A stretch of 64,000 bases of DNA, from the NCBI GenBank assembly GCA_030390025.1, contig JASTWF010000335.1, forward strand, positions 310,001 through 374,000, given 5' to 3'. Made by a program: the position numbers and the translations under genes. The first letter of the stretch is position 1. Each line of letters begins with the position of its first letter. Below the pieces are notes generated by a model. The model saw nothing but the letters and a program-made list of their open reading frames with translations. It was not told the DNA's origin and searched no databases. This DNA is from Squalus acanthias (Eukaryota). Positions 7,858 to 38,407 of this stretch are shown here, one piece after another.

Positions 7858-8378
7858 ACATAAAATTTACAGCACAGAAACAGGCCATTGGGCCCAACAG
7901 GTCAAGCTGGTGTTTATGTTCCACATGAGCCTCCTCCCTGCCCTCTTCATATAACACCATCAACTTACCCTTCTATTCCTTTCTCCCTCATGTGCTTATC
8001 TATAGCTTCCCCTTAACTGCATCTCCGCTATTCGCTACACCCACTCCCTGTGGGAGCGAGTTCCACATTCTCCCCACTCTCTGGGTAAGAGTTTCTCCTG
8101 AATTCCCGATTGGATTTATTAGTGACTCTCTTATATTGATGGCCCCCCTAGTCCTGGTCTCCCCCACAAGTGGAAACATCTTCTCTACGTCTACTCTATC
8201 GAACCCTGTCATAATATTAATGACCTCTATCAGGTCACCCCCTCAGTCTTCTCTTTTTTAGAGAAAAGAGCCCCTGCTTGTTTAGCCTTTCCTGATTGTT
8301 ACAACCTCTCAGTTCTGGTGTCATCCTTGTAGATCATTCTTCCATCTTCTCCAGCGCCTCCATATCCTTTTCATAATG
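7858..8378 (-). mobile_element. CR1 LINE 3-prime fragment (left flank of the 39-bp satellite)
   Basis: Minus-strand GFDRVDVEKMFPLVGETRTRG..TQRVGRMWNSLPQ and KDMEALEK. Confidence 0.88.
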
Positions 8379-11300
8379 TAGAGACCGGAACTGGGCACAG
8401 TAACTCCAAGTGTGATATGGAGACCAGAACGGTGCACAGTAACTCCAAGTGTGATATGGAGACCAGAACTGTGCACAGTAACTCCAAGTGTGATATGGAG
8501 ACCAGAACTGTGCACAGTAACTCCAAGTGTGATATGGAGACCAGAACTGTGCACAGTAACTCCAAGTGCGATATGTAGACCAGAACTGTGCACAGTAACT
8601 CCAAGTGTGATATGGAGACCAGAACTGTGCACAGTAACTCCAAGTGAGATATGGAGACCAGAACTGTGCACAGTAACTCCAAGTGTGATATGGAGACCAG
8701 AACTGTACACAGTAACTCCAAGTGTGATATGGAGACCAGAACTGTGCACAGTAACTCCAAGTGTGATAAGGAGACCAGAACTGTGCACAGTAACTCCAAG
8801 TGTGATATGGAGACCAGAACTGTGCACAGTAACTCCAAGTGCGATATGGAGACCAGAACTGTGCACAGTAACTCCAAGTGCGAATGGAGACCAGAACTGT
8901 GCACAGTAACTCCAAGTGTGATATGGAGACCAGAACTGTGCACAGTAACTCCAAGTGCGATATGGAGACCGGAACTGTGCACAGTAACTCCAAGTGTGAT
9001 ATGGAGACCGGAACTGTGCACAGTAACTCCCAGTGTGATATGGAGACCAGAACTGTGCACAGTAACTCCAAGTGTGATATGGAGACCAGAACTGTGCACA
9101 GTAACTCCAAGTATGATATGGAGACCAGAACTGTGCACAGTGCTCCAAGTATGATATGGAGACCAGAACTGTGCACAGTAACTCCAAGTGCGATATGGAG
9201 ACAAGAACTGTGCACAGTAACTCCAAGTGCGATATGGAGACCAGAACTGTGCACAGTAACTCCAAGTGCGATATGGAGACCAGAACTGTGCACAGTAACT
9301 CCAAGTGTGATATGGAGTCCAGAACTGTGCACAGTAACTCCAAGTGTGATATGGAGTCCAGAACTGTGCACAGTAACTCCAAGTGTGATATGGAGTCCAG
9401 AACTGTGCACAGTAACTCCCAGTGTGATATGGAGACCAGAGCTGTGCACAGTAACTCCAAGTGTGATATGGAGTCCAGAACTGTGCTTAGTAACTCCCAG
9501 TGTGATATGGAGACCAGAACTGTGCACAGTAACTCCAAGTGTGATACGGAGACCAGAACTGTGCACAGTAACTCCAAGTGTGATATGGAGTCCAGAACTG
9601 TGCACAGTAACTCCCAGTGTGATATGGAGTCCAGAACTGTGCACAGTACTCCAAGTGTGAGAGACCAGAACTGTGCACAGTAACTCCAAGTGTGATATGG
9701 AGACCAGAACTGTGCACAGTAACTCCAAGTGTGATATGGAGACCAGAACTGTGCACAGTAACTCCAAGTGTAATATGGGGACCAGAACTGTGCACAGTAA
9801 CTCCAAGTGTGATATGGGGACCAGAACTGTGCACAGTAACTCCAAGTGTGATATGGAGTCCAGAACTGTGCACAGTAACTCCAAGTGTGATATGGAGACC
9901 AGAACTGTGCACAGTACTCCAAGTGTGATATGGAGACCAGAACTGTGTACAGTAACTCCAAGTGTGATATTGAGACCAGAACTGTGCACAGTAACTCCAA
10001 GTGTAATATGGAGACCAGAACTGTGCACAGTAACTCCAAGTGTGATATGGGGACCAGTACTGTGCACAGTAACTCCAAGTGTGATATTGAGACCAGAACT
10101 GTGCACAGTAACTCCAAGTGTGGTATGGGGACCAGTACTGTGCACAGTAACTCCAAGTGTGATATGGAGACCAGAACTGTGCACAGTAACTCCAAGTGTG
10201 ATATGGAGACCAGAACTGTGCACAGGACTCCAAGTGTGATATGGAGACCAGAACTGTGTACAGTAACTCCAAGTGTGATATTGAGACCAGAACTGTGCAC
10301 AGTAACTCCAAGTGTAATATGGAGACCAGAACTGTGCACAGTAACTCCAAGTGTGATATGGGGACCAGTACTGTGCACAGTAACTCCAAGTGTGATATTG
10401 AGACCAGAACTGTGCACAGTAACTCCAAGTGTGGTATGGGGACCAGTACTGTGCACAGTAACTCCAAGTGTGATATGGAGACCAGAACTGTGCACAGTAA
10501 CTCCCAGTGTGATATGGGGACCAGAACTGTGCACAGTAACTCCAAGTGTGATATGGAGACCAGAACTGTGCACAGTAACTCCAAGTGCGATATGGAGTCC
10601 AGAACTGTGCACAGTAACTCCAAGTGGGATATGGAGACCAGAACTGTGCACAGTAACTCCAAGTGTGATATGGAGACCAGAACTGTGCACAGTAACTCCA
10701 AGTGCGATATGGAGTCCAGAACTGTGCACAGTAACTCCAAGTGTGATATGGAGACCAGAACTGTGCACAGTAACTCCAAATGTAATATGGAGACCAGAAC
10801 TGTGCACAGTAACTCCAAGTGTGATATGGGGACCAGAACTGTGCACAGTAACTCCAAGTGTGATATGGAGTCCAGAACTGTGCACAGTAACTCCAAGTGC
10901 GATATGGAGTCCAGAACTGTGCACAGTAACTCCCAGCGTGATATGGAGACCAGAACTGTGCACAGTAACTCCAAGTGCGATATGGAGACCAGAACTGTGC
11001 ACAGTAACTCCAAGTGTGATATGGAGACCAGAACTGTGCACAGTAACTCCAAGTGTGATATGGAGACCAGAACTGTGCACAGTAACTCCAAGTGTGATAT
11101 GGAGTCCAGAACTGTGCACAGTAACTCCAAGTGTGATATGGAGTCCAGAACTGTGCACAGTAACTCCCAGTGTGATATGGAGTCCAGAACTGTGCACAGT
11201 ACTCCAAGTGTGAGAGACCAGAACTGTGCACAGTAACTCCAAGTGTGATATGGAGACCAGAACTGTGCACAGTAACTCCAAGTGTGATATGGAGACCAGA

Positions 11301-13891
11301 ACTGTGCACAGTAACTCCAAGTGTAATATGGGGACCAGAACTGTGCACAGTAACTCCAAGTGTGATATGGGGACCAGAACTGTGCACAGTAACTCCAAGT
11401 GTGATATGGAGTCCAGAACTGTGCACAGTAACTCCAAGTGTGATATGGAGACCAGAACTGTGCACAGTACTCCAAGTGTGATATGGAGACCAGAACTGTG
11501 TACAGTAACTCCAAGTGTGATATTGAGACCAGAACTGTGCACAGTAACTCCAAGTGTAATATGGAGACCAGAACTGTGCACAGTAACTCCAAGTGTGATA
11601 TGGGGACCAGTACTGTGCACAGTAACTCCAAGTGTGATATTGAGACCAGAACTGTGCACAGTAACTCCAAGTGTGGTATGGGGACCAGTACTGTGCACAG
11701 TAACTCCAAGTGTGATATGGAGACCAGAACTGTGCACAGTAACTCCAAGTGTGATATGGAGACCAGAACTGTGCACAGGACTCCAAGTGTGATATGGAGA
11801 CCAGAACTGTGTACAGTAACTCCAAGTGTGATATTGAGACCAGAACTGTGCACAGTAACTCCAAGTGTAATATGGAGACCAGAACTGTGCACAGTAACTC
11901 CAAGTGTGATATGGGGACCAGTACTGTGCACAGTAACTCCAAGTGTGATATTGAGACCAGAACTGTGCACAGTAACTCCAAGTGTGGTATGGGGACCAGT
12001 ACTGTGCACAGTAACTCCAAGTGTGATATGGAGACCAGAACTGTGCACAGTAACTCCCAGTGTGATATGGGGACCAGAACTGTGCACAGTAACTCCAAGT
12101 GTGATATGGAGACCAGAACTGTGCACAGTAACTCCAAGTGCGATATGGAGTCCAGAACTGTGCACAGTAACTCCAAGTGGGATATGGAGACCAGAACTGT
12201 GCACAGTAACTCCAAGTGTGATATGGAGACCAGAACTGTGCACAGTAACTCCAAGTGCGATATGGAGTCCAGAACTGTGCACAGTAACTCCAAGTGTGAT
12301 ATGGAGACCAGAACTGTGCACAGTAACTCCAAATGTAATATGGGGACCAGAACTGTGCACAGTAACTCCAAGTGTGATATGGGGACCAGAACTGTGCACA
12401 GTAACTCCAAGTGTGATATGGAGTCCAGAACTGTGCACAGTAACTCCAAGTGCGATATGGAGTCCAGAACTGTGCACAGTAACTCCCAGCGTGATATGGA
12501 GACCAGAACTGTGCACAGTAACTCCAAGTGCGATATGGAGTCCAGAACTGTGCACAGTAACTCCAAGTGTGATATGGAGACCAGAACTGTGCACAGTAAC
12601 TCCAAGTGTGATATGGAGACCAGAACTGTGCACAGTAACTCCAAGTGTGATATGGAGTCCAGAACTGTGCACAGTAACTCCAAGTGCGATATGGAGTCCA
12701 GAACTGTGCACAGTAACTCCAAGTGTGATATGGGGACCAGTACTGTGCACAGTAACTCCAAGTGTGATATGGAGTCCAGAACTGTGCACAGTAACTCCAA
12801 GTGTGATATGGAGTCCAGAACTGTGCACAGTAACTCCAAGTGTGATATGGGGACCAGTACTGTGCACAGTAACTCCAAGTGTGATATGGAGACCAGAACT
12901 GTGCACAGTACTCCAAGTGTGATATGGAGACCAGAACTGTGCACAGTAACTCCAAGTGTGATATGGAGTCCAGAACTGTGCACAGTAACTCCAAGTGTGA
13001 TATGGGGACCAGTACTGTGCACAGTAACTCCCAGTGTGATATGGGGACCAGAACTGTGCACAGTAACTCCAAGTGTGATATGGAGACCAGAACTGTGCAC
13101 AGTAACTCCCAGTGTGATATGGGGACCAGAACTGTGCACAGTAACTCCCAGTGTGATATGGAGACCAGAACTGTGCACAGTAACTCCCAGTGTGATATGG
13201 AGACGAGAACTGTGCACAGTAACTCCAAGTGTGATATGGAGACCAGAACTGTGCACAGTAACTCCAAGTGTGATATGGAGACCAGAACTGTGCACAGTAA
13301 CTCCCAGTGTGATATGGAGACCAGAACTGTGCACAGTAACTCCCAGTGTGATATGGAGACGAGAACTGTGCACAGTAACTCCAAGTGTGATATGGAGACC
13401 AGAACTGTGCACAGTAACTCCAAGTGTGATATGGAGACCAGAACTGTGCACAGTAACTCCAAGTGTGATATGGAGACCAGAACTGTGCACAGTGCTCCAA
13501 GTGTGATATGGAGACCAGAACTGTGCACAGTAACTCCAAGTGTGATATGGAGACCAGAACTGTGCACAGTAACTCCAAGTGTGATATGGAGACCAGAACT
13601 GTGCACAGTAACTCCAAGTGTGATATGGAGACCAGAACTGTACACAGTATTCCAAGTGTGATATGGAGACCAGAACTGTGCACAGCAACTCCAAGTGTGA
13701 TATGGAGACCAGAACTGTGCACAATAACTCCAAGTGTAATATGGAGACCAGAACTGTGCACAGCAACTCCAAGTGTGATATGGAGACCAGAACTGTGCAC
13801 AGTACTCCAAGTGTAATATGGAGACCAGAACTGTGCACAGTACTCCAAGTGTAATATGGAGACCAGAACTGTGCACAGTAACTCCAAGTGT
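8379..13891. repeat. 39-bp minisatellite (about 141 units) derived from the CR1 RT segment PHLEYCAQFWSPY
   Basis: Unit TCCAAGTGTGATATGGAGACCAGAACTGTGCACAGTAAC with 38-bp and 35-bp variants. Both flanks are collinear CR1 sequence. Confidence 0.97.
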
Positions 13892-14065
13892 GGTCTACCC
13901 AAGGTTCTATACAAGTTTAACATAACATCTCTGCTTTTCAATTCTGTCCCTCTAGAAATGAACCCCGTTGCTTTGTTGACATTTTTGGTGGCCTTGTTAA
14001 CCTATGTCGCTACATTTAGAGATATGTAAATCTGTACCCCCCCCCGATCTCTTCGCTCCTCTACC
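13892..14065 (-). mobile_element. CR1 LINE fragment (right flank of the satellite)
   Basis: Minus-strand KSRDVMLNLYRTLGRPHLE reads directly into the first satellite unit. Confidence 0.85.
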
Positions 14066-14362: not shown

Positions 14363-15030
14363 CTGTGGATTAAAGCACAACCACATTCACCTCACTTGCA
14401 CTTGTTGCGAACGACACTTAAGAGCACTTGTAGGACAGATGAAGATGAACATGTGCGAGCAGAAATTGGTACCATTTTCGGCCACGATCGCGCCTTCACC
14501 CTCCTCACTCCATTTCCTCTTTCACTATTTTATGGTCATTACTCCTCAGACGTTCTACTCTTGGTCTCCTGTTAATATCCCTTCGCACTCGGCAAGTCTC
14601 ACCCCATTATCTTCCCAGGGATCCCCATTGCGACACAACTTTGTAGTTTCCCCTCCTGCAAGCTTTCAAAACTGCATCTTGGTGTCCATCTAATCTGCTC
14701 CTTGATTACACCTTGCCTTCTCTGGTCTCTGATTGATTGACGGGGCACTATGAATAATACTGCAAGGCCATGGATCTCCCCCGACCCCCCCACTTATTAC
14801 AAACATATGAATAATGATGGACAGGTAATGATCCTCTGGTCCATTCAGCCTGTCCCACACAATTGCGATACCGTGTTTATCTCAAAATATACACTCCACC
14901 CCACCCAAAACCATGTGATCTCCCGGAAGAGGTGAAAAACCAGATTAAAAACCCAGGCCAATTTTGGGTGGGGGGGGGGCGGACCTGGAAAATTCCTCTC
15001 CGACCCATCTAGGTGATCAAAACTAGTCCA

Positions 15031-15359
15031 TGATGTTCCAACTGCCCTTTATCACAGCTCGGCAGAGAGATAATCACGGCAATCAAAGGTGTGGATGGTG
15101 TCCAAACAGGTCAGTCAGGAAAACATGACATCAAAGACAATGAGGTGGGGTCACAAGGGGTCAAATGTGGCAGATGCTGGGGTCTGGATGGAAAACAAAA
15201 AGCTGGAAAGATTAACTGTAATCACCTGGCAGTGTTCTCTGACTATATGCTGTGCCTATATGTATTTCTTCACTTCACCTGACGAAGGAGCAGCGCTCCG
15301 AAAGCTTGTGATTTCAAATAAAGCTGTTGGACTATAACCTGGTGTTGTGCGACTTCTCA
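15031..15359 (+). mobile_element. Short Penelope-like insertion ending in a hammerhead module, 13-bp TSD
   Basis: CAAAACTAGTCCA at 15018-15030 and 15360-15372. The 3-prime end is shared with the 16355 and 20450 insertions. Confidence 0.8.
15275..15311 (+). ncRNA. Minimal type I hammerhead ribozyme motif
   Basis: TCAC-CTGACGA-A-GGAGC-AGC-GCTCC-GAA-AGCT-T-GTGA: stem I TCAC/GTGA, core CUGANGA and GAAA, stem II GGAGC/GCTCC, palindromic AGCT in place of stem III. Confidence 0.8.
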
Positions 15360-16354
15360 CAAAACTAGTCCAGGCAATCAAAACTATTCCAGGAGATCTC
15401 TCTGGCCCTGAATTCCCCGCAGTACCTACCTTCTGTAAGAGGTGATGTCCGCCCCAGCCAGAAACAGGTCCCGCACTCGTTTGAAGGTAGTGAGTGAGTC
15501 GGTGTCCGCCGCATGAGATGGCAGCCTGTTTCAGGGGACCGCTATTCTCTGGGAAAACAACCGCCTCCTGACATCTAACCTCGATCTGTCCTTGTACAAC
15601 GTAAAATTTGAGACCCCTGATCCTCCCTAATCTGTTTCATTGCTAAGTGACGTCCGAGAGGTCGCTGTCCTCGCCATGTCATGCCGTTGTCGTTGTGGCG
15701 TGGCGTCGTACTGCTCATTATAGGCTAGCCTGAAGGCCAAGTAAACCCTGGATAACAGGGCCTCCAGCTTCTTCCAGACAAAACGAATGTAAGCTATTGA
15801 ACAGGGTGGGGGGGTGAAGCATGAGTCGGTGGAGAAGAGACGCAAAACAGGCGGAATCACAATTGCCGCCCATCATAGGACATGGCCTGATATTCAGTTC
15901 TACTGAAGTCAACGGAACTAAGTATCGGGCGGGGCGTATAACGGGCGATCGATGCGATACTGCTTGACGTAAGAAAACTACTAGGCACTTGGTCTAAGCG
16001 TTAAACAAAGCTTTAATCAACTGTTTTACAACATGGAGGTCTAGTTGTGTCCTTCACTAGTTCCTGTTAAAGAATGTCCTGCGCAAGCTGGGCCCGTGCC
16101 CGAGTATTTATACTCTCCCTGGACAGCGCCACCAGCAGGCCACTCAGTATTATTTCATAAGTCTTTCTTTCATGAATGACAGATTCATGTCACTGCCTGT
16201 TTAGCGTCCCCCTTGTGCAATTTCACCCCCCCCTCCAGTGTACTTAATAAAAGCCAGGATGAATGAAACGAGTCAGAAGGATGACAATGCTTCTACTGAT
16301 CTTTTCCCCTTTGATGTCCCCAATCTTCCAAGGACCACTGCTTTTCTTGATATA

Positions 16355-16556
16355 ATGTGGAGATGCCGGTGTTGGACTGGGGTGGACAAATGTGAGAAGT
16401 CGCACAACACCAGGTTATAGTCCAACAGCTTTATTTGAAATCACAGGCTTTCGGAGTGCTGCTCCTTCGTCACCTGACGAAGGAGCAGCGCTCCGAAAGC
16501 TTGTGATTTCAAATAAACCTGTTGGACTATAACCTGGTGTTGTGCGACTTCTCACA
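16355..16556. mobile_element. Fold-back hammerhead-bearing mini element with 12-bp TSD
   Basis: TSD TTTCTTGATATA at 16343-16354 and 16557-16568. Inverted arms of about 85 bp, 16388-16472 and 16475-16559. Confidence 0.85.
16470..16506 (+). ncRNA. Minimal type I hammerhead ribozyme motif
   Basis: TCAC-CTGACGA-A-GGAGCAGCGCTCC-GAAAGCTT-GTGA, same as 15275. Confidence 0.8.
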
Positions 16557-18089
16557 TTTCTTGATATATATTAATGACTTAGACTTGGGTGTACAGGGCA
16601 CTATTTCAAAATTTGCGGATGACACAAAACTTGGAAGTATAGTGACCAGTGAGGAGGAGAGCGATAGACTTCAAGAGGACATAGACAGGCTGGTGAAATG
16701 GGCGAACACGTGGCAGATGAAATTTAACACAGAAAAGTGCGGAGTGATACATTTTGGTTGGAAGAACGAGGAGACGCAATGTAAACTAAAGGGTACAATC
16801 CTAAAGGGGGTGCATGAACAGAGAGACCTGGGGGTATATGTGCACAAATCGTTGAAGGTGGCAGGGCAGGTTGAGAAAGCAGTTAAAAAAGCTTATGGGA
16901 TACTGGGCTTCATAAATAGAGGCATACAAAAGCAAGGAAGCTATGATGAACCTTTATAAAACACTGGTTCGGCCTCAACTGGAGTATTGTGTCCAATTCT
17001 GGGCACTGCACTTTAGGAAGGATGTGAAGGCCTTAGAGAGGGTGCAGAAAAGATTTACAAAAATGGTACCAGGGATGAGGGCCTTCAGTTACGTGGATAG
17101 ACTGGAGAAGCTGGAATTGTTCTCCTTGGAGCAGAGAAGGTTGAGAGGAGATTTGATAGAGGTGTTCAAAATCATGAGGGGTCTGGACAGAGTAGATAGA
17201 GAGAAACTGTCCCCATTGGCGGAAGTGTCGAGAACCAGATGACACAGATTTAAGGTGATTGGCAGAAGATCCAAAGGCGACATGAGGAAAAACTTTTTTA
17301 CGCAGCGAGTGGTTAGGATCTGGAATGTGCTGCCTGCGAGGGTGGTGGAGGCAGATTCAATCGTGGCTTTCAAAAGGGAATTGGATAAATACCTGAAGGA
17401 AAAAAATTTGCAGGGCGATGGAGTAAGGGCGGGGGATTGGGACTAGCTGAAGTGCTCTAGCAGAGAGCCGGCACGGGCTCGACGGGCCGAATGGCCTCCT
17501 TCTGTGCTGTAACCATTCTAGGATTCTATGAAGCCAAAGAAAGATGGAGGCCCAATCCTCCAGGATTCGCCTGGTTTTTTTTTTTAACTTTTTTTTTGTG
17601 AGCGTGATAATCGCCTGTTTCGAAGCGGGAGAATAGCCCCAGGTGAGGTCAGTTGCGCTGCTTCTCCAAGTAAGAAGTTGGAGGCTTCTGGCTTTCTACA
17701 ACACGAGTTTGCGGATCGGGTGTTTCTCAACTCATCCCAAGATTCCGGAGATCTTGTTTGCCTTATGCAGGCACGGCAGGAACGAGATTCCCTTTTGGAG
17801 CTTCTCAGTTGAAGATAAATTCACTGATCCACACTTCTAGGGGGCGGTGGGAGCCATGCTTGAAGGGAGCTCCTGTCTTTGACCAGCACTCCCTGTGAGC
17901 GCAGGTCCCCAGTGGGAGTGCGGAATCGGTCAATTGACTCTGATTCAAAGAAGCTTTAAACTGTGAAAGGGGAGATGGACTGAGGCACTGTCTATGGAAG
18001 CAAGGACGGGGTACTCCATTGTTTTTGTGGTGACCTAGAACTGCCTCTGACGAGATTTTACTCACAGTCTCGCTGGTTTTACTCAGTCA

Positions 18090-19105
18090 AGACTCCAGTG
18101 TTGCTCCTAGTGGGGTACCGCAGGGATCGGTCCTTGGACCCCAGCTATTCACAATATACATTAATGATCTAGATAAGGGAACTAAATGTAATATCTCCAA
18201 GTTTGCAGATGACACAAAGCTGGGTGGGAGTGTGTGCTGTGAGGAGGTTACCGAGAAACTCCAGGATGATTTGGACAGGTTGGGTGAGTGGGCAGAAGCG
18301 TGGCAGATGCAATATAACGTGGATAAATGCGAGGTTATCCACTTTGGTGTCAAAAACAGAAAGGCAGACTATTATCTGAATGGCAATAGATTGGGAGAAG
18401 GGGAAGTGCAACGAGACCTGGGTGTCCTTGTGCACCAGTCGTTGAAGGTAAGGCAAATGGTATGTTGGCCTTCATAGCGAAAGGGTTTGAGTACAGGAAC
18501 AGGGATGTCTTGCTGCAGTTGTACAGGGCCTTGGTGAGACCACACCTTGAGTATTGTGTGCAGTTTTGGTCGCCTTATCTGAGGAAGGATGTTCTTGCCA
18601 TGGAGGGAGTGCAGCGAAGATTCACAAGGCTGATACCTGGGATGGCAGGAATGACATATGAGGAGAGATTGGGTCGATTGGGCTTATACTCGCTGGAGTA
18701 TAGAAGAATGAGAGGGGATCTCATCGAAACATATAAAATTCTGACAGGTCTGGACAAACTAGATGCAGGAAAAATGTTCCCGATGGTCGGAGAGTCCAGA
18801 ACCAGGGGTCATAATCTAAGGATAAGGGGTAAGCCATTTCGGACAGAAATGAGGAAGAATTTCTTCACCCAGAGAGTGGTGAACCTGTGGAATTCTCTAC
18901 CACAGAAGGTAGTTGAGGCCAATTCATTAAATATATTCAAGAATGAGTCAGATATATTTCTTAAAGCTAAAGGGATCAAGGGATATGGGGAGAAGGCAGG
19001 GACAGGGTACTGAGTTTGGATGATCAGCCATGATCTCATTGAATGGCGGAGCAGGCTCGAGGGGCCAAATGGCCTACTCCTGCTCCTATCTTCTATGTTT
19101 CTATG
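18090..19105 (+). mobile_element. CR1 LINE 3-prime 1 kb (young subfamily)
   Basis: [32 protein letters not shown], tail TTCTATG. Confidence 0.93.
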
Positions 19106-19250
19106 GTGGCGCGCTGAAAATCGGGGGGATGCGCAAGAGGCCGAAATTGGAGGAGTGCAGTGATTTCGGGGAGTTAAAATGGAGGCCTAGCTCGGCATGG
19201 TCAGCCTTATCCCTAACCCACTCACCCGGTGGACCCTCTGGTTGGTGGGG

Positions 19251-19500
19251 ATCTTCTATACTCCAGCGAGTATAAGCCCAATCGACCCAATCTCTCCTCA
19301 TATGTCATTCCTGCCCTCCCAGGTATCAGCCTTGTGAATCTTCGCTGAACTCCCTCCATGGCAAGAACATCCTTCCTCAGATAAGGCGACCAAAACTGCA
19401 CACAGTGCTCAAGGTGTGGTCTCACCAAGGCCCTGTACAACTGCAGCAGGACATCCCTGTTCCTGTACTCAAACCCTTTCGCTATGAAGGCCAACATACC
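19251..19500 (-). mobile_element. CR1 fragment, inverted relative to 18460-18710
   Basis: ORF 19222-19497 is almost identical to the start of ORF 18462-19013. Confidence 0.9.
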
Positions 19501-19700
19501 ATTGGCGGCCGTGCCTTCAGCTGCGTAGGTCCTAACCTCTGGAATTCCCTCCCTAAAACTCTCCGTCTCTCTCTCTCTTTCCTCCTTTAAGGCGCTCCTT
19601 AAAACCTGCCTCTTTGTGTCCGAATGTGGCTTGGTGTCAGTTTTTGTCTGATAATCGCTCCTGTGAAGCGCCTTGGGACATTAAAGGCAAGTTGTTGTTG
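19501..19700 (+). mobile_element. L2-like LINE 3-prime end (other half inverted at 19103-19176)
   Basis: IGGRAFSCVGPNLWNSLPKTLRL followed by a TTG repeat tail. Same family as 55160-55550. Confidence 0.7.
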
Positions 19701-19908
19701 ATTTGGGACATTCCTGGCCTCCCCGGCGCATGTGATGGGAGCAATCCCAGGGGATGGACAGGCACAGTGCAACTTTGCAAGAGGGGGCGCAGGAAATTGG
19801 TCTGTTATCATCAAATCGAAAAGTCATAACATAAAGCGATTTTCTTTTAATATATAAATTCGAGACAGTATAATACTATTGCCAATTACATGGAACAGTG
19901 GCACTTAC

Positions 19909-20022
19909 CGGCCGCCACGCTGAATAATAGGCCAGTGGAAAATACAGGGACATGGAGTATGCAATGATCCCGAGTCCTGCCATGACAGCACTGATGATAT
20001 TCGTTATCAGGACAATCTTCAC
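19909..20022 (-). CDS. MS4A: MS4A/CD20-family gene, coding exon 4 (TM3)
   Basis: Acceptor tattgtttgcag, 114 nt, VKIVLITNIISAVMAGLGIIAYSMSLYFPLAYYSAWRP, donor GTAAGT. Contains the MS4A NI.SA..A..GI motif. Confidence 0.9.
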
Positions 20023-20111
20023 CTGCAAACAATACAAGGTGACGTTCAGGATGTCGACCGAAAAACTCACTGAGATAGCGTGAAAGTAAAGAAAGGACTC
20101 CCGTATCTACA

Positions 20112-20426
20112 GCCGTCGCAAAGCGCTTCACAGCCAATGAAGCACTTTTTGAAGTGTAGTCGCTGTTGGAATGTAGGAAACGCAGCAGCCAATTTGCGCA
20201 CAGCAAGCTCCCACAAACAGCAATGTGATAAATGACCAGATCATCTCTTTCAGTTCACTAAAAAAAAATCAGATGATCTGGTCATTAACTCACTGCTGTT
20301 TGTGGGTGCTTGCTGTGCGCAAATTGGCTGTCACCACACTTTCAAAAGCACTTCATTGGCTGTGAAGCGCTTTGGGACGTCCTGAGGTCGTGAAGCGCGC
20401 TGTGTAAATGCAAGTCTTTCTTTCTT
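20112..20426. mobile_element. Two SacSINE1/Deu-like SINE 3-prime fragments in opposite orientation
   Basis: AAAGCGCTTCACAGCCAATGAAG..CAGCAAGCTCCCACAAACAGC (20120-20250) and its reverse complement (20270-20420). Confidence 0.75.
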
Positions 20427-20449
20427 TCGGGCGCTCCACCCACATGATG

Positions 20450-20532
20450 ACCTGACGAGGGAGCAGCGCTCCGAAAGCTTGTGATTTCAAATAAAGCTCT
20501 TGGACTATAACCTGGTGTTGTGCGACTTCTCA
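20450..20532 (+). mobile_element. 83-bp insertion consisting of a hammerhead motif plus tail, probable 6-bp TSD
   Basis: AC-CTGACGA-G-GGAGCAGCGCTCC-GAAAGCTT-GTGA..GTGCGACTTCTCA, with ATGATG at 20444-20449 and 20533-20538. Confidence 0.72.
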
Positions 20533-20739
20533 ATGATGCTTTGTGCCCAAGCACGGAAGAGGAAAACCACACCCTCCCCCCCCCTACCTTGTGTCTACCT
20601 CGTCCAGCACTGTGAGATTGCAAGGCTGAAACTGTGCAGCACCAGCGCACGGAGGGCATACATCGGAGGTACCCCTCCCTCCCTCCATTTGATTTTACGT
20701 GATTGCCAAACCAGTAGCAGTACTGACGCAAATACTAAC

Positions 20740-20796
20740 CTTGAACGTGTTTGATACATCCTTCATTTCAGTTGCCAGTGCTCCAGAAATGATGTA
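20740..20796 (-). CDS. MS4A: MS4A/CD20-family gene, coding exon 3 (TM2)
   Basis: Acceptor ctctcttttgcag, 57 nt, YIISGALATEMKDVSNTFK, donor GTTAGT. The IISG motif in a short exon is typical of MS4A. Confidence 0.92.
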
Positions 20797-20959
20797 CTGC
20801 AAAAGAGAGCGCTGGAGAGGTTAGTATTTGTTCACACACACGCAAAGGTACCTCAGTGAGCTGCACTCTCGGTTATCCGCAAGAGTTGGGGCTTCATCTG
20901 GTTAACGACAACTCAAATATAATAGCGTTTTGAACTGATTTCTCATAGACGGTGCTGTA

Positions 20960-21530
20960 TATCCATCTGGAGTAACTGCGTTCAGTTCTGGGCATGCACC
21001 TCAGGAAGGATATAGTCACCTTGGAGGGGGTGCAGCGCAGATTCACCATAGAAAAGTACAGCACAGAAGGAGGCCATTCAGCCCATCGACTCTGCGCCGG
21101 CTCTTTCAAAGAAATCAGAATGATACCGGGGGGCTAAATGGGTTCAATTATGAGGACAGGTTGCATAGACTAGGCTTGTATTCCCCTGAGTATAGAAGAG
21201 TGATGGGTGGTCTAATTGAGGTGTTTAAAATGTTAAAGGGAATTGATAGCCTAGATAGAAAGAAACTATTTCATCTGCTGGGGGGAGTCCAGAACAAGGG
21301 GAAATAACCTTAAAATTAGAGCCAGGCCGTTCAAGGGGTGATGTCAGGAAGCACTTCTTCACACAAAGGGTAGTGGAAATCTGGAACTCTCTCCCCCAAA
21401 AAGCTGTGGGTCAATTGGAGCTTTCAAGACTGAGATGGATAGATTTTTGTTGGGTGAGAGTATTGAGGAATATGGAGCAAAGGCGGGTAAATGGAGTTGA
21501 AGTACAGATCAGCCATGATCTGATTGAATG
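20960..21530 (+). mobile_element. Degenerate CR1 3-prime fragment
   Basis: HLE..VQFW, RKHFFTQRVVEIWNSLPQK and the 3-prime UTR GATCAGCCATGAT. Confidence 0.85.
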
Positions 21531-35641: not shown

Positions 35642-36840
35642 CTTGGAAATACTCAGAATGGTCAGGCAGCATCTGTGGAGAGAGAAACAGAGTTAACGTT
35701 TCAGGTCGATGACCCTTCGTCAGTACTGGAAAAAGCTGGAGATGGAACAGGTTTTTAAGCAAGTGCAGGGGCAGGGAAAGGGGGGAGGGGAGGAAAGAGC
35801 AAAAGGGAAGGTCTGTGATAGGATGGAAGGCAGGAGAGATTAAGAGACAAAAGGGATGATGGTGCAAGGCAAAAAGAGATGGTAATGGGACAAGTTAAGA
35901 AACAAAAGATGGCTCCAGATGAAGTATAAATGGCGATGGCAGAATGAGCGACAGCTGCCATGTGAGAGAGAGAGAAAAAAAATCAAAAATGGAAAAATGA
36001 TAGGGGCAGAGGTTATGGTCTGAAATTGTTGAACTCGATGTTGAGTCCAGAAGGCTGTAAAGTGCCTAATGGAAAGATGAGGTGCTGTTACTCGAGCTTA
36101 CGTTGAGCTTCATTGGAGCAGTGTAAGAGGCCGAGGACGGTGAGGTCAGAGTGGGAGTGGAGCGGAGAATTAAAGTGACAGGCCACCGGAAGCTCGGGGT
36201 CACGCTATCGGACTGAACGGAGGTGTTCCGCAAACCGGTCGCCCAATCTACGTTTGGTCTCCCCAATGTAGAGGAGACCGCATCGTGAGCAGCGAATACA
36301 GTATACTGTACTAAATTGCATGAAGTACAAGTAAATCGCTGTTTCACCTGGAAGGAGTGTTTGGGGCCCTGGACAGTGGGAAGGGAGGAGGTAAAAGGGC
36401 ATGTGTTGCATCTCCTGCGCTTGCACGGGAAGGTGTCGGGCGAAGGGAAAGGTGTGTTGGGGGTGTGGACCAGGGTGTCGTGGAGGGAGCGGTCCCTGCG
36501 GAATGCTGAAAGGGGAGGTGAGGGGAAGATGCGTTTGGTGGTGGGATCACGCTGGAGGTGGCGGAAATGGCGGTGGATGATCCGTTGAATGTGGAGGCTG
36601 GTGGGGTGAAAGGTGAGGACAAGGGGAACCCTATCGTCGTTCCGGGAGGGAGTGGAAGGGGTGAGAGCAGAAGTGCGGGAAATAGAACGGATACAGTCAA
36701 GGGCCGTCTCAACCACAGTAGCGGGGAATCCTCGGTTGAGGAAAAAGGAAAACATGTCGGAAGCACTGGTATGGAAGGTGGCATCGTCAGAGCAGATGCG
36801 GCGGAGACGGAGAAACTGGGCGAATGGAATGGAGTCCTTC
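35642..36840 (-). mobile_element. Penelope-like element 3-prime part (RT thumb, GIY-YIG endonuclease, 3-prime region with hammerhead)
   Basis: KDSIPFAQFLRLRRICSD, PCKRRRCNTC, VYCIRCSRCGLLYIGETKRRLGDRFAEHLRS. Confidence 0.92.
35691..35726 (-). ncRNA. Minimal hammerhead motif (Penelope 3-prime type)
   Basis: Minus strand AGTA-CTGACGA-AG-GGTC-ATC-GACC-T-GAAACGTT-AACT, with one mismatch in stem I. Confidence 0.65.
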
Positions 36841-38407
36841 GAGCTCGGCACGATGCTGAGCTCTTTTTCCGCCGCCTTCGTCTCCGTGCCCACTTCTTTG
36901 GCCAGGAGTCTTCCCCCCGCACGGCTGACCCTTTCTCCCGTTTTCAGAATTCTCGTTCTACCTGGACCCCTCCCTCTGGCCTCTTACCCTCTCTAGATCT
37001 TTTCATTGCAAACTGCCGGCGTGACATTGGCCGTCTCAATTTCTCTGCTCCCCTCACTCACTCCAACCTACCTCCCTCTGAACTTGCAGCACTCCATTCT
37101 CTCAGATCCAACCCCGACATTGTCATTAAACCTGCTGACAAAGGCGGTGCTGTTGTTGTTTGGCGAACCGACCTCTACCTAGCGGACGCTGAACGCCAAC
37201 TCTCTGACACCTCCTCCTACCTCCGCCTGGACCATGACCCCACTACCGAACATCAAGCCACCGTTTCCAAGACTGTCACTGACCTCATCTCCTCTGGAGA
37301 TCTTCCCTCCACGGCCGCCAACCTCATAGTTCCCCAACCCCACACAGCCTACTTCTACCTCCTTCCAAGATCCACAAACAGGACTGCCCTGGTAGACCCA
37401 TCGTTTCAGCCTGTTCTTGCCCCACTGAGCTTATCTCTTCCTATCTCGACTCTATTTTTTCTCCCCTTGTCCAGTCTCTTCCCACCTACATCCGCGACTC
37501 TTCCGACGCCCTCCGCCACTTTAACAGTTTCGAGTTTCCTGGCCCCAACCGTCTCCTTTTCACTATGGACATCCAATCCCTCTACACCTCCATCCCCCCA
37601 CCAGGATGGCCTGAGGGCGCTCCGCTTCTTCTTTGAACAGAGGCCAAACCAGTCCCCATCCACCACCACCCTCCTCCGCCTGGCTGAACTTGTTCTCACA
37701 TTGAACAACTTCTCCTTTGACTCCACTCACTTCCTCCAAATTAAAGGTTTTGCTATGGGAACCCGCATGGGTCCTAGCTATGCCTGCCTTTTTGTGGGAT
37801 ATGTGGAACATTCTTTGTTCCAGTCCTACTCAGGTCCCCTCCTTCACCTCTTTTTCCGGTACACTGATGACTGTATTGGTGCTGTTTCCTGCTCTCGCCC
37901 TGAACTAGAAAATTTCATACACTTTGCTTCCAATTTCCACCCTGGATCCCTCACCTTCACATGGTCCATCTCCGACTCTTCCCTTCCCTTCCTCGACTTC
38001 TCTGTCTCCATCTCTGGGGATAGGCTATTGACAAACATTCACTACAAGCCCACTGACTCCAACAGCTACTTGGACTACACTTCCTCCCACTCCACTTCCC
38101 GAAAGGACTCTATTCCATTCTCCAAGTTTCTCCGTCTCCGCCGCATCTGCTTGACGATGCCACCTTCCATACTAGTGCTTCTGACATGTCTTGCTTTTTC
38201 CTCAACCGAGGATTCCCCTCTACTGTGGTTGAGACGGCCCTTGACCGTGTCCGTTCTATTTCCCGCACTTCTGCTCTCACCCCTTCCCCTCCCTCCCGGA
38301 ACAACGATAGAGTTCCCCTTGTCCTCACCTTTCACCCCACCAGCCTCCACATTCAACGGATCATCCACCGCCATCTCCAGTGTGATCCCACCACCAAACA
38401 CATCTTT
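36841..38407 (+). mobile_element. Penelope-like element RT region, frameshifted
   Basis: ELFFRRLRL, IKPADKGGAVVVW, GFAMGTRMGPSYACLF, FRYTDD, LPFLD, YKPTD. Confidence 0.93.

What the first reader, a model, noticed from the sequence alone, without database searches (positions are those of the whole stretch)
15018..20538. Family of tiny TSD-flanked insertions built around a minimal hammerhead ribozyme
Seen: three insertions (15031-15359, 16355-16556, 20450-20532) share an about 85-nt module and end at the same point (..GTGCGACTTCTCA). Each has its own direct repeat (13, 12 and 6 bp). The module folds as a type I hammerhead: stem I TCAC/GTGA, CUGACGA, stem II GGAGC/GCTCC, GAAA, with palindromic AGCU replacing stem III. 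Known: Penelope-like elements carry minimal hammerheads thought to cleave as dimers through such palindromes. Inference: this is a non-coding, ribozyme-bearing mini-retroelement mobilised in trans by Penelope RT/GIY-YIG, and the smallest copy is little more than the ribozyme.
Basis: partly seen in the sequence, partly recalled or inferred. Interest (0 to 1): 0.8.

Follow-up and report, generated by a model that had tools for sequence, protein, structure and literature searches.

The report
Stub copies of a Penelope retrotransposon
The three tiny ribozyme-bearing insertions are stub-length copies of the end repeat of a protein-coding Penelope-like jumping gene that is very abundant in this genome, which is a known kind of footprint, and they likely record where its RNA starts and where its copying enzyme begins.

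Summary
Three insertions flanked by target-site duplications (TSDs) share a module with a minimal hammerhead ribozyme (HHR): UCAC/GUGA, CUGACGA, GGAGC/GCUCC, GAAA, palindromic AGCU.

The module is the last ~130 nt of the terminal repeat (pLTR) of an autonomous Penelope-like element (PLE). That element has the layout pLTR-ORF-pLTR, with a 920-codon open frame holding a reverse transcriptase (RT) and a GIY-YIG-type nuclease. Many copies are about 93% identical. Copies form a length continuum from 83 nt to full length, so the stubs are not a separate non-coding family.

Truncation is not random. Of 120 arms, 46 begin within 15 nt just 5' of the HHR. The peak falls on the A of an Inr motif 30 nt downstream of a conserved TATATA.

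3' ends fall at two sites about 37 nt apart, matching the published PLE "tail". All 43 mirror-image insertions sampled carry one short and one long end, and 40 of 43 have a TSD of at least 8 bp.

Almost no copy starts at the predicted cleavage site.

All of these traits are published for PLEs. What is added here is a new family member and the counts. Ribozyme activity was not tested.

The parts
15018..15030 (.). Left copy of the 13-bp target-site duplication CAAAACTAGTCCA
   Evidence: Read. It is identical to 15360-15372.
15031..15204 (-). Inverted 5' segment of insertion 1. It is the reverse complement of pLTR positions c-241 to about c-68 (c0 is the C of CUGACGA).
   Evidence: BLAST to the natural full-length copy R109 gives 15204-15036 at 97.6%.
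15201..15359 (+). Direct pLTR end of insertion 1 (c-80 to c+82, short 3' end). It holds a complete min-HHR at 15275-15311, with the core at 15279 and predicted cleavage after 15307.
15360..15372 (.). Right copy of the 13-bp TSD
16343..16354 (.). Left copy of the 12-bp TSD TTTCTTGATATA
16355..16472 (-). Inverted arm of insertion 2 (c+1 to c+120). Its outer end is the long 'tail' end. The HHR copy lacks C3 and the 5' strand of stem I.
16470..16556 (+). Direct arm of insertion 2 (c-4 to about c+83, short end). It holds a complete min-HHR at 16470-16506, with the core at 16474.
16557..16568 (.). Right copy of the 12-bp TSD
20444..20449 (.). Left copy of a 6-bp direct repeat ATGATG. This is weak evidence on its own.
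20450..20532 (+). Insertion 3, an 83-nt single arm (c-2 to c+80, short end). The HHR core is at 20452, only 2 nt of the 5' strand of stem I remain, and the bulged base is G instead of A.
20533..20538 (.). Right copy of ATGATG

Best explanation
The three insertions are short copies of the terminal repeat (pLTR) of an autonomous Penelope-like retrotransposon of this genome, whose 920-codon open frame carries a reverse transcriptase and a GIY-YIG-type nuclease; they are not a separate ribozyme element.

Shown:
- The element is pLTR-ORF-pLTR.
- The minimal hammerhead lies in the pLTR, 91 nt upstream of the ORF's ATG.
- Insertions end at one of two sites, about c+83 or about c+120, and the ATG sits at the latter.
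- Insertions are flanked by AT-rich TSDs, mostly 12-13 bp.
- Many insertions are mirror-image pairs that always combine one short and one long end.

Inferred:
- The two ends are the two adjacent internal start sites of the element's reverse transcriptase, as measured for the anole element PAc.
- The commonest 5' end (c-7) is likely the transcription start of the pLTR promoter, given TATATA at -30 and an Inr at +1. A stub would then be a run-off cDNA of the short leader that lies between the RNA's 5' end and the nearest RT start site.
- Mirror-image stubs would arise when both cut target strands prime on one RNA, each using one of the two start sites.
- The hammerhead is predicted to cleave after AGCUU, probably as a dimer or with protein help. 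Cleaved RNA is rarely the template.
For: 1. Membership of a long coding element.
- 28 of 29 copies that hold pLTR positions ref1-172 share sequence further upstream.
- Homology reaches from 351 nt to more than 1750 nt from the 3' end.
- The upstream sequence encodes YIDDIFFLW and VVYLIRC..YIGET motifs.
- Pfam RVT_1 scores 35.4 bits against a cut-off of 29.6.
- The C-terminus aligns at E 5e-12 to a segment of another PLE that passes the PF01541 cut-off.
- 97 scored genomic matches are 92-95% identical at protein level, with open frames up to 920-921 codons.
- Three loci show pLTR-ORF-pLTR, with repeats of 251-775 nt at 97-99% identity and Met at codon 30, at the end of the long tail.

2. Abundance. 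The exact HHR 44-mer occurs 13,839 times and the exact tail 30-mer 68,929 times. Controls give 0.

3. Ends. 43 of 43 inverted pairs have one short end (c77-100) and one long end (c113-126). Unpaired arms split 23 short and 15 long.

4. TSDs. A TSD of 8 bp or more is found in 40 of 43 pairs, against 0.9% in the null. TSDs are 71% AT, against 52% in the background.

5. 5' ends. 46 of 120 arms start at c-14..0, with 14 at c-7 and 7 at c-6. Only 8 reach the ORF.

6. Promoter motifs. TATATA at -30..-25 and the Inr TCA(+1)CTTC or TTACTTC, with +1 at c-7, are present in 7 of 7 pLTR copies of two subfamilies.

7. Constraint. Between subfamilies the module c-9..c113 is 95-97% identical, while the 223 nt upstream are 70-73% identical.

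8. One template per pair. Both arms share the c44 variant in 28 of 29 pairs, and arm-to-arm mismatch is 1.8%.

9. Literature.
- The tail, the inverted 5'-truncated copy, the pLTR and the HHR are stated PLE traits (passages of PMC8557442; passages of PMC3846280).
- PAc has two adjacent internal RT start sites, extends both target strands, and does not need its HHR in vitro (main text of PMC11167929).
- The min-HHR features are described in PMC4209133 (parts 1-2 of the text).
Against: - No RNA 5' end was measured. The only public runs found are contigs of guessed type, and they cannot show starts.
- The 5' pile-up could instead be an RT stop at the base of the folded ribozyme.
- 23 of 120 arms end inside the HHR (c+1..+25). 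A pure run-off model does not predict this. It needs microhomology joining.
- Pfam GIY-YIG itself did not score on this family's ORF at E<=1.
- Only 10 of 27 unpaired arms gave a TSD of 8 bp or more with my boundaries. Some of these probably have unrecognised inverted 5' parts, as insertion 1 does.
- Ribozyme activity is untested, and conservation covers the whole 123-nt block, not the catalytic boxes specifically.
- The sample is drawn from the first 5.5 Mb of one contig, plus loci anchored on exact words. It therefore favours young copies.
Confidence: 0.8

Rival explanations
1. One reading: the stubs are an independent, non-coding, ribozyme-bearing mini-retroelement family (SINE-like or retrozyme-like) that propagates itself using Penelope RT/EN in trans.
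For: - Stubs vastly outnumber long copies. There are 68,929 exact tails, and only 8 of 120 arms reach the ORF.
- The 5' ends are non-random.
- A leader-only RNA encodes nothing, so it would need protein made from another RNA.
- Non-autonomous pLTR derivatives of PLEs are described in other animals (results section of bioRxiv 10.64898/2026.07.22.740005; passage of PMC8557442 on non-autonomous Chlamys elements).
Against: - The module is 95-97% identical to the pLTR of coding copies.
- Lengths form a continuum.
- The c44 variants A, G and T occur in stubs and in long copies alike.
- Stubs start at c-7, so they lack the TATATA at c-37..-32.
- No tRNA-like head was found.
- There are no short tandem arrays. 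The only head-to-tail case among 124 arms is two long copies.
Confidence: 0.1
2. The stubs are ordinary dead-on-arrival copies. The RT starts at the 3' pLTR of a full transcript and falls off early, and the pile-up at c-7 is a structural stop at the folded hammerhead rather than an RNA 5' end.
For: - A high degree of 5' truncation is a stated PLE trait (PMC8557442).
- Truncation points are spread over the whole element.
- A stable stem I plus stem II fold (-11.6 kcal/mol) lies exactly there.
Against: - The modal end is past the whole ribozyme, not before it.
- The modal end coincides to the base with an Inr A that lies 30 nt downstream of a TATATA, and both are conserved in two subfamilies whose intervening sequence differs.
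- In several pairs both arms stop at c-7/-6 and are joined through 11-28 nt of filler.
Confidence: 0.2
3. The mirror-image pairs arise by snap-back (self-priming) of a single cDNA rather than by priming from both target strands.
For: - Self-priming was proposed for inverted pLTRs with palindromic junctions (discussion passage of PMC3846280).
- The two arms of a pair come from one template (28 of 29 concordant at c44).
- Many junctions overlap by 1-14 nt.
Against: - A copied-back strand should run to the start of the first cDNA, giving equal ends. Instead 43 of 43 pairs differ by the ~37-nt tail.
- Regular direct TSDs of 12-13 bp flank the pairs.
- Some junctions carry 11-48 nt of filler.
- PAc protein cleaves and extends both strands in vitro (PMC11167929).
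Confidence: 0.2
4. The copies derive from circular or tandem ribozyme-processed RNA, that is, a retrozyme-type rolling-circle template.
For: A circular-template idea was proposed for PLEs (discussion of PMC4209133). The motif has the dimer-type palindrome.
Against: - Only 1 of 120 arms starts at the predicted cleavage site. In the first sample it was 3 of 33 rows.
- No short tandem arrays were found.
- Ends lie 55-92 nt 3' of the cleavage site.
Confidence: 0.03

Closest known systems
Endonuclease-positive Penelope-like elements (Penelope/Poseidon/Neptune type), for example Pen2a_Av of Adineta vaga (PMC3846280) and the general description in PMC8557442
   Same: [quoted passage not shown]
- An adjacent inverted 5'-truncated copy, and a 30-40 bp tail at one end only.
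- TSDs and a high degree of 5' truncation.
- A TATA box about 20 bp upstream of an Inr-like TCACT in the pLTR.
- An HHR in the pLTR.
   Different: This is a family in a 3.7-Gb animal genome whose clade I did not determine. Most copies are stubs of 83-260 nt. The pLTR also carries a decayed second HHR module related to another family in the same genome.
PAc (Poseidon of Anolis carolinensis), the in vitro system of Frangieh et al. 2024 (PMC11167929)
   Same: - Two adjacent 3' ends about 37 nt apart, in and beside a stem-loop just 3' of the HHR, match its two internal RT start sites and 'tail'.
- The target is AT-rich.
- Both strands are extended.
- HHR-cleaved RNA is not the main template.
   Different: In PAc the ORF begins inside the HHR and RT starts 111-118 nt into the ORF. 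Here the ATG lies at the distal start site, 91 nt after the cleavage site. Nothing here was measured biochemically.
Minimal hammerheads of metazoan PLEs (Cervera and de la Pena 2014, PMC4209133)
   Same: - The catalytic boxes, and an extra base between positions 9 and 10.1.
- The G10.1-C11.1 pair and palindromic 15.2-16.2 positions, with no helix III.
- A short helix I, and location in the pLTR.
- Pairs of motifs on opposite strands, and mostly solitary truncated copies.
   Different: Helix II is 5 bp rather than the 7-8 bp of the Schistosoma families. The motif is nearly invariant within this family instead of highly variable.
Non-LTR retrozymes of animals (PMC7229834; bioRxiv 10.64898/2026.07.22.740005)
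   Same: A type I HHR, a non-coding repeat related to PLE pLTRs, and likely dependence on PLE enzymes.
   Different: Retrozymes are tandem arrays thought to act through circular RNA. These copies are dispersed single or mirror-image insertions with TSDs, and their ends do not lie at the cleavage site.
L1 twin priming (5' inversions); recalled from memory, no call
   Same: Insertion 1 has a 5' segment inverted next to the direct 3' segment, with an 8-12 nt overlap.
   Different: Most pairs here duplicate the same region in both arms and obey the short-plus-long rule.

Membership tests
Minimal hammerhead of metazoan PLEs (PMC4209133) | Catalytic boxes CUGANGA and GAAA in type I order | tested here: met
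   Three matches in the window against 0.00 expected. The exact 44-mer occurs 13,839 times in the genome.
Minimal hammerhead of metazoan PLEs (PMC4209133) | One unpaired base between positions 9 and 10.1, and a G10.1-C11.1 pair | tested here: met
   CUGACGA-A-GGAGC..GCUCC-GAAA, read. The base is G in the copy at 20452.
Minimal hammerhead of metazoan PLEs (PMC4209133) | Palindromic 15.2-16.2 positions with no helix III (dimer type), and a short helix I | tested here: met
   A-GC-U, then U17, then GUGA pairing with UCAC. The minimum-free-energy fold is stems I and II only.
Minimal hammerhead of metazoan PLEs (PMC4209133) | Lies in the pLTR of a PLE | tested here: met
   Present in both pLTRs of L109, L110 and L111.
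Minimal hammerhead of metazoan PLEs (PMC4209133) | Self-cleavage after H17 | not testable with these tools
   No assay was possible. Only 1 of 120 arms starts at the predicted site.
Rfam Hammerhead families (type I, II, III, HH9, HH10) | Score to the covariance model | tested here: not met
   No hammerhead hit at gathering threshold or at E<=10 on 14900-20700. This is expected for a motif that lacks helix III.
EN+ Penelope-like element | Single ORF with a reverse transcriptase | tested here: met
   RVT_1 at E 1.2e-8, 35.4 bits against a cut-off of 29.6, on P0002. Open frames reach 920-921 codons.
EN+ Penelope-like element | C-terminal GIY-YIG endonuclease | tested here: inconclusive
   Pfam PF01541 did not score on P0002 at E<=1. 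Residues 818-904 align at E 5e-12 and 40% identity to a segment of another PLE that passes the PF01541 cut-off. Protein-atlas neighbours carry RVT_1, HTH_animal, DUF8422 and GIY-YIG (a lead only).
EN+ Penelope-like element | Pseudo-LTRs from partial tandem structure | tested here: met
   Direct repeats of 251, 775 and 660 nt at 97.6-98.8% identity flank the ORF.
EN+ Penelope-like element | Adjacent inverted 5'-truncated copy, and a 30-40 bp tail at one end only | tested here: met
   43 inverted pairs, all 43 with one short and one long end about 37 nt apart. 4 of 5 long loci have an inverted arm.
EN+ Penelope-like element | Target-site duplication and AT-rich target | tested here: met
   A TSD of 8 bp or more in 40 of 43 pairs. 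TSDs are 71% AT against 52% background.
Non-LTR retrozyme | Head-to-tail tandem arrays of short HHR units | tested here: not met
   One head-to-tail case among 124 arms, and it consists of two long coding copies.
SINE | Internal Pol III promoter (tRNA, 7SL or 5S head) | tested here: not met
   No tRNA-like gene in 14500-21000. 7SL and 5S heads were covered only by the Rfam scans.

The most novel reading that the evidence does not exclude
Each stub is a run-off cDNA of the capped leader of a pLTR transcript, spanning from a transcription start 7 nt before the ribozyme to an internal RT start site. In every mirror-image stub, the two adjacent start sites of one RNA are used once each, one per cut target strand. 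The tens of thousands of stubs would then be a natural, base-resolution record of a dimeric Penelope RT-nuclease priming on both DNA strands.
Probability: 0.4. Interest if true: 0.55.

Novelty: new member of a known kind. Interest (0 to 1): 0.33.

Why it matters
Penelope-like elements are the least understood class of retrotransposons. Only one has been reconstituted in vitro.

This genome holds at least 68,929 copies of one family's 3' module, with regular anatomy:
- two 3' ends;
- a strict short-plus-long rule in mirror-image insertions;
- a sharp 5' end on a predicted promoter start.

These counts turn qualitative textbook traits (tail, inverted copy, truncation) into testable predictions about where the RNA starts, where the enzyme initiates, and how both target strands are used.

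For annotation, the result shows that abundant 'hammerhead mini-elements' in such genomes should be filed as Penelope stubs, not as a new ribozyme element.

Tried and rejected
- **Rfam.** No hammerhead hit was found. The microRNA-like hits at 16434-16513 and 20189-20327 only reflect long inverted repeats.
- **DNA search of the own genome with the 88-nt module.** It returned nothing because very common words are skipped. I replaced it with exact patterns.
- **Pfam GIY-YIG family search of the genome.** Only 150 of 15,241 candidates were scored, giving one locus of another PLE family.
- **The 353-nt unit.** My first guess, that a 353-nt unit (L001) was a complete short element with a fixed 5' end, was wrong. 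28 of 29 copies continue upstream.
- **TSD script.** My first TSD script was faulty, and I replaced it.
- **Generic min-HHR regular expression.** It found nothing because of greedy matching, so I ignored it.
- **RNA evidence.** All 24 runs found are stored as contigs, and most are of guessed type. Laying four of them showed the module at roughly 1000 times the depth of the ORF, with no places where molecules begin or end. This says nothing about transcription or RNA ends.
- **Cofolding of two HHR copies.** It swapped stem II rather than forming an AGCU helix, which is uninformative.
- **Promoter geometry in the other PLE family.** I looked for the same geometry there and saw only a TTTAAA-like box at an unclear distance. 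I did not pursue it.
- **Notes of this scan.** Searches by place and by sequence found nothing.


Full report
**Coordinates.** I use c for position relative to the C of CUGACGA (c0). In the 353-nt natural reference copy (L001 1269-1621), c0 is position 233 and the predicted cleavage is after c28.

**Observation.**
- The three insertions are present as described.
- The hammerhead pattern occurs at 15279, 16474 and 20452, against 0.00 expected.
- A fourth tail copy on the minus strand, at 16403-16423, shows that 16355-16556 is a mirror-image pair.
- The direct repeats of 13, 12 and 6 bp are real. Only the first two exceed the null of mismatched flanks, in which 0.9% of 4814 pairs give 8 bp or more.
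- The fold of c-7..c36 is stem I plus stem II.
- The motif has the four non-trivial features listed for minimal hammerheads of metazoan Penelope-like elements (PLEs): a base between positions 9 and 10.1, the G10.1-C11.1 pair, palindromic 15.2-16.2 positions, and a short helix I (PMC4209133, parts 1-2 read).
- Rfam models do not score it.

**What it belongs to.**
- The module is extremely abundant. The exact 44-mer occurs 13,839 times and the exact tail 30-mer 68,929 times in the 3.7-Gb genome, with 0 for reversed controls.
- In 30 loci anchored on the 44-mer, no copy was longer than about 350 nt. That at first suggested a short element.
- A search with the upstream 172 nt changed this. 28 of 29 copies continue upstream with shared sequence, and homology reaches from 351 nt to more than 1750 nt from the 3' end.
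- That upstream sequence encodes RT and GIY-YIG-like motifs.
- A 431-residue piece has 97 scored genomic matches at 92-95% identity, with open frames up to 921 codons.
- Three loci show pLTR-ORF-pLTR, with repeats of 251-775 nt at 97-99% identity. The first Met is at codon 30, which is the ATG at the very end of the long tail.
- Pfam gives RVT_1 above its cut-off.
- Pfam GIY-YIG does not score. However, the C-terminus aligns at E 5e-12 to a PLE segment that does pass the cut-off.
- The module is therefore the end of the pLTR of an autonomous PLE.

**Anatomy in a wider sample.**
- I fetched the surroundings of the first 100 exact tail matches on contig 1 and aligned two natural full-length copies to them, to 17 of the first 19 HHR-anchored loci (L001-L019 without L010 and L014) and to the window.
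- After dropping 4 duplicate rows, 124 arms remained.
- 43 mirror-image pairs were found. All 43 combine one short outer end (c77-100) with one long outer end (c113-126): 22 in one order, 21 in the other, and none with like ends.
- The 38 unpaired arms are 23 short and 15 long.
- 40 of 43 pairs have a TSD of 8 bp or more, most often 12-13 bp, so each pair is a single insertion event.
- The two arms of a pair share the polymorphic base c44 in 28 of 29 cases and differ at 1.8% of positions. They therefore come from one template.
- Of 120 arms, after 4 badly chained rows were dropped, 5' ends fall as follows:
  - 46 at c-14..0, with 14 at c-7 and 7 at c-6;
  - 23 at c+1..+25;
  - 1 at the cleavage site;
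  - 6 further 3';
  - 36 elsewhere in the pLTR;
  - 8 in the ORF.
- Only one head-to-tail case was seen, and it consists of two long copies.

**Fit to published work.**
- PMC8557442 (passages) and PMC3846280 (passages) state the following as PLE traits: high 5' truncation, partial tandems forming pLTRs, an adjacent inverted 5'-truncated copy, and a 30-40 bp tail often present at only one end.
- PMC3846280 also notes a TATA box about 20 bp upstream of an Inr-like TCACT in a rotifer pLTR.
- PMC11167929 (main text) shows that the anole element's protein:
  - starts reverse transcription at two adjacent internal sites that delimit the tail;
  - prefers AT-rich targets;
  - cleaves and extends both strands;
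  - does not need hammerhead cleavage in vitro.
- The two end classes here (about 37 nt apart), the 71% AT content of the TSDs and the near absence of copies starting at the cleavage site all match.

**Inference on mechanism.**
- The modal 5' end (c-7) is the A of TCACTTC (TTACTTC in the second subfamily).
- TATATA lies at -30..-25 from it in 7 of 7 pLTR copies, although the sequence between the two differs between subfamilies.
- Conservation also begins there. The module c-9..c113 is 95-97% identical between subfamilies, while the preceding 223 nt are 70-73% identical.
- I therefore infer that c-7 is the transcription start of the pLTR promoter. On this reading the stubs are run-off cDNAs of the leader between that start and the nearest RT start site. 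They are not early drop-offs.
- For the pairs, the strict short-plus-long rule, the single template and the regular TSDs fit priming from both cut strands on one RNA, with each of the two start sites used once.
- Snap-back of one cDNA should give equal ends.
- None of these inferred steps was measured. The public runs found are contigs, which cannot show RNA ends.

**The window's copies.**
- Insertion 1 (15031-15359) is a direct arm (c-80..+82) joined to an inverted segment (c-241..-68). The two overlap by 8-12 nt, like a twin-priming inversion.
- Insertion 2 (16355-16556) is a long-plus-short pair.
- Insertion 3 (20450-20532) is a single short-ended arm that starts at c-2.

**Verdict.**
- The hammerhead and the Penelope link are right.
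- The 'separate mini-retroelement' reading is not supported.
- The kind is well described. What is new is this family and the counts.
- Notes from other sessions of this scan reach the same reading in other genomes and in this one. I formed my reading before seeing them, and they are not independent evidence.
- My literature searches found no paper that states the 'leader run-off from the transcription start' idea or a strict short-plus-long count. They cover only the open-access library.

Noticed in passing
window 35644-38406; hammerheads at 35723, 55904 and 58044 (minus strand); loci L044-L061: A second, more divergent PLE family has its own minimal hammerhead: AGUU, CUGAYGA, A, AGGUC..GACCU, GAAA, palindrome ACGU, AACU. 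It has open frames of up to 1004 codons elsewhere in the genome. The window holds one inverted-structure copy and three of its hammerheads.
   Followed up: partly
L111:1907-2014 (minus) and L109:1958-2065 (minus); alignment A1: Right after the ORF stop, the pLTR of the studied family holds a decayed copy of the other family's hammerhead plus tail. It has CUGACGU instead of CUGACGA and GAGU instead of GAAA. Stem II is kept through two compensatory pair changes (GAGUC/GACUC against AGGUC/GACCU). 57 of 119 columns are invariant. The family seems to have stacked a new 3' module onto an old one.
   Followed up: partly
Loci L005, L008, L015, L137, L141 (also L120, L139, L144, L122): 9 of 51 insertions with a clear TSD lie in one LINE-derived repeat, and 5 of them lie at the same 12-bp site, TCTATTTATGAA. 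L008 and L015 have nearly the same structure and may be one event copied along with the LINE. This could be a target hot spot, or simply the commonest AT-rich site in the genome.
   Followed up: partly
window 8321-14001: A tandem array of about 5.6 kb is open in several frames. It is built from a short piece resembling the LEYCAQFWSPY region of a LINE ORF.
   Followed up: no
window 16557-19700: The DNA that hosts insertion 2 consists of LINE reverse-transcriptase fragments (KFADDTKLG, LEYCVQFWSPYLRKDV) in both orientations.
   Followed up: no
window 20189-20327: A long, nearly perfect inverted repeat scores as plant or animal microRNA families well below their thresholds (MIR831 at 50.7 bits against a threshold of 100). 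It is probably a foldback repeat, not a microRNA.
   Followed up: no
L001 5' end; window about 15196-15204; L028: A second recurrent cDNA end lies at or near reference position 1 (about c-232 to c-241), just after an A7-G-T6 run. This is also where the relic tail of the older module ends. It is unexplained.
   Followed up: no
runs X1, X5, X9, X11: Contigs from runs of four differently coded organisms in four studies hold the module at 90% identity or more. In one of them (X11) the upstream pLTR part is the most abundant, rather than the module. This suggests related families with different amplification patterns in related species.
   Followed up: no
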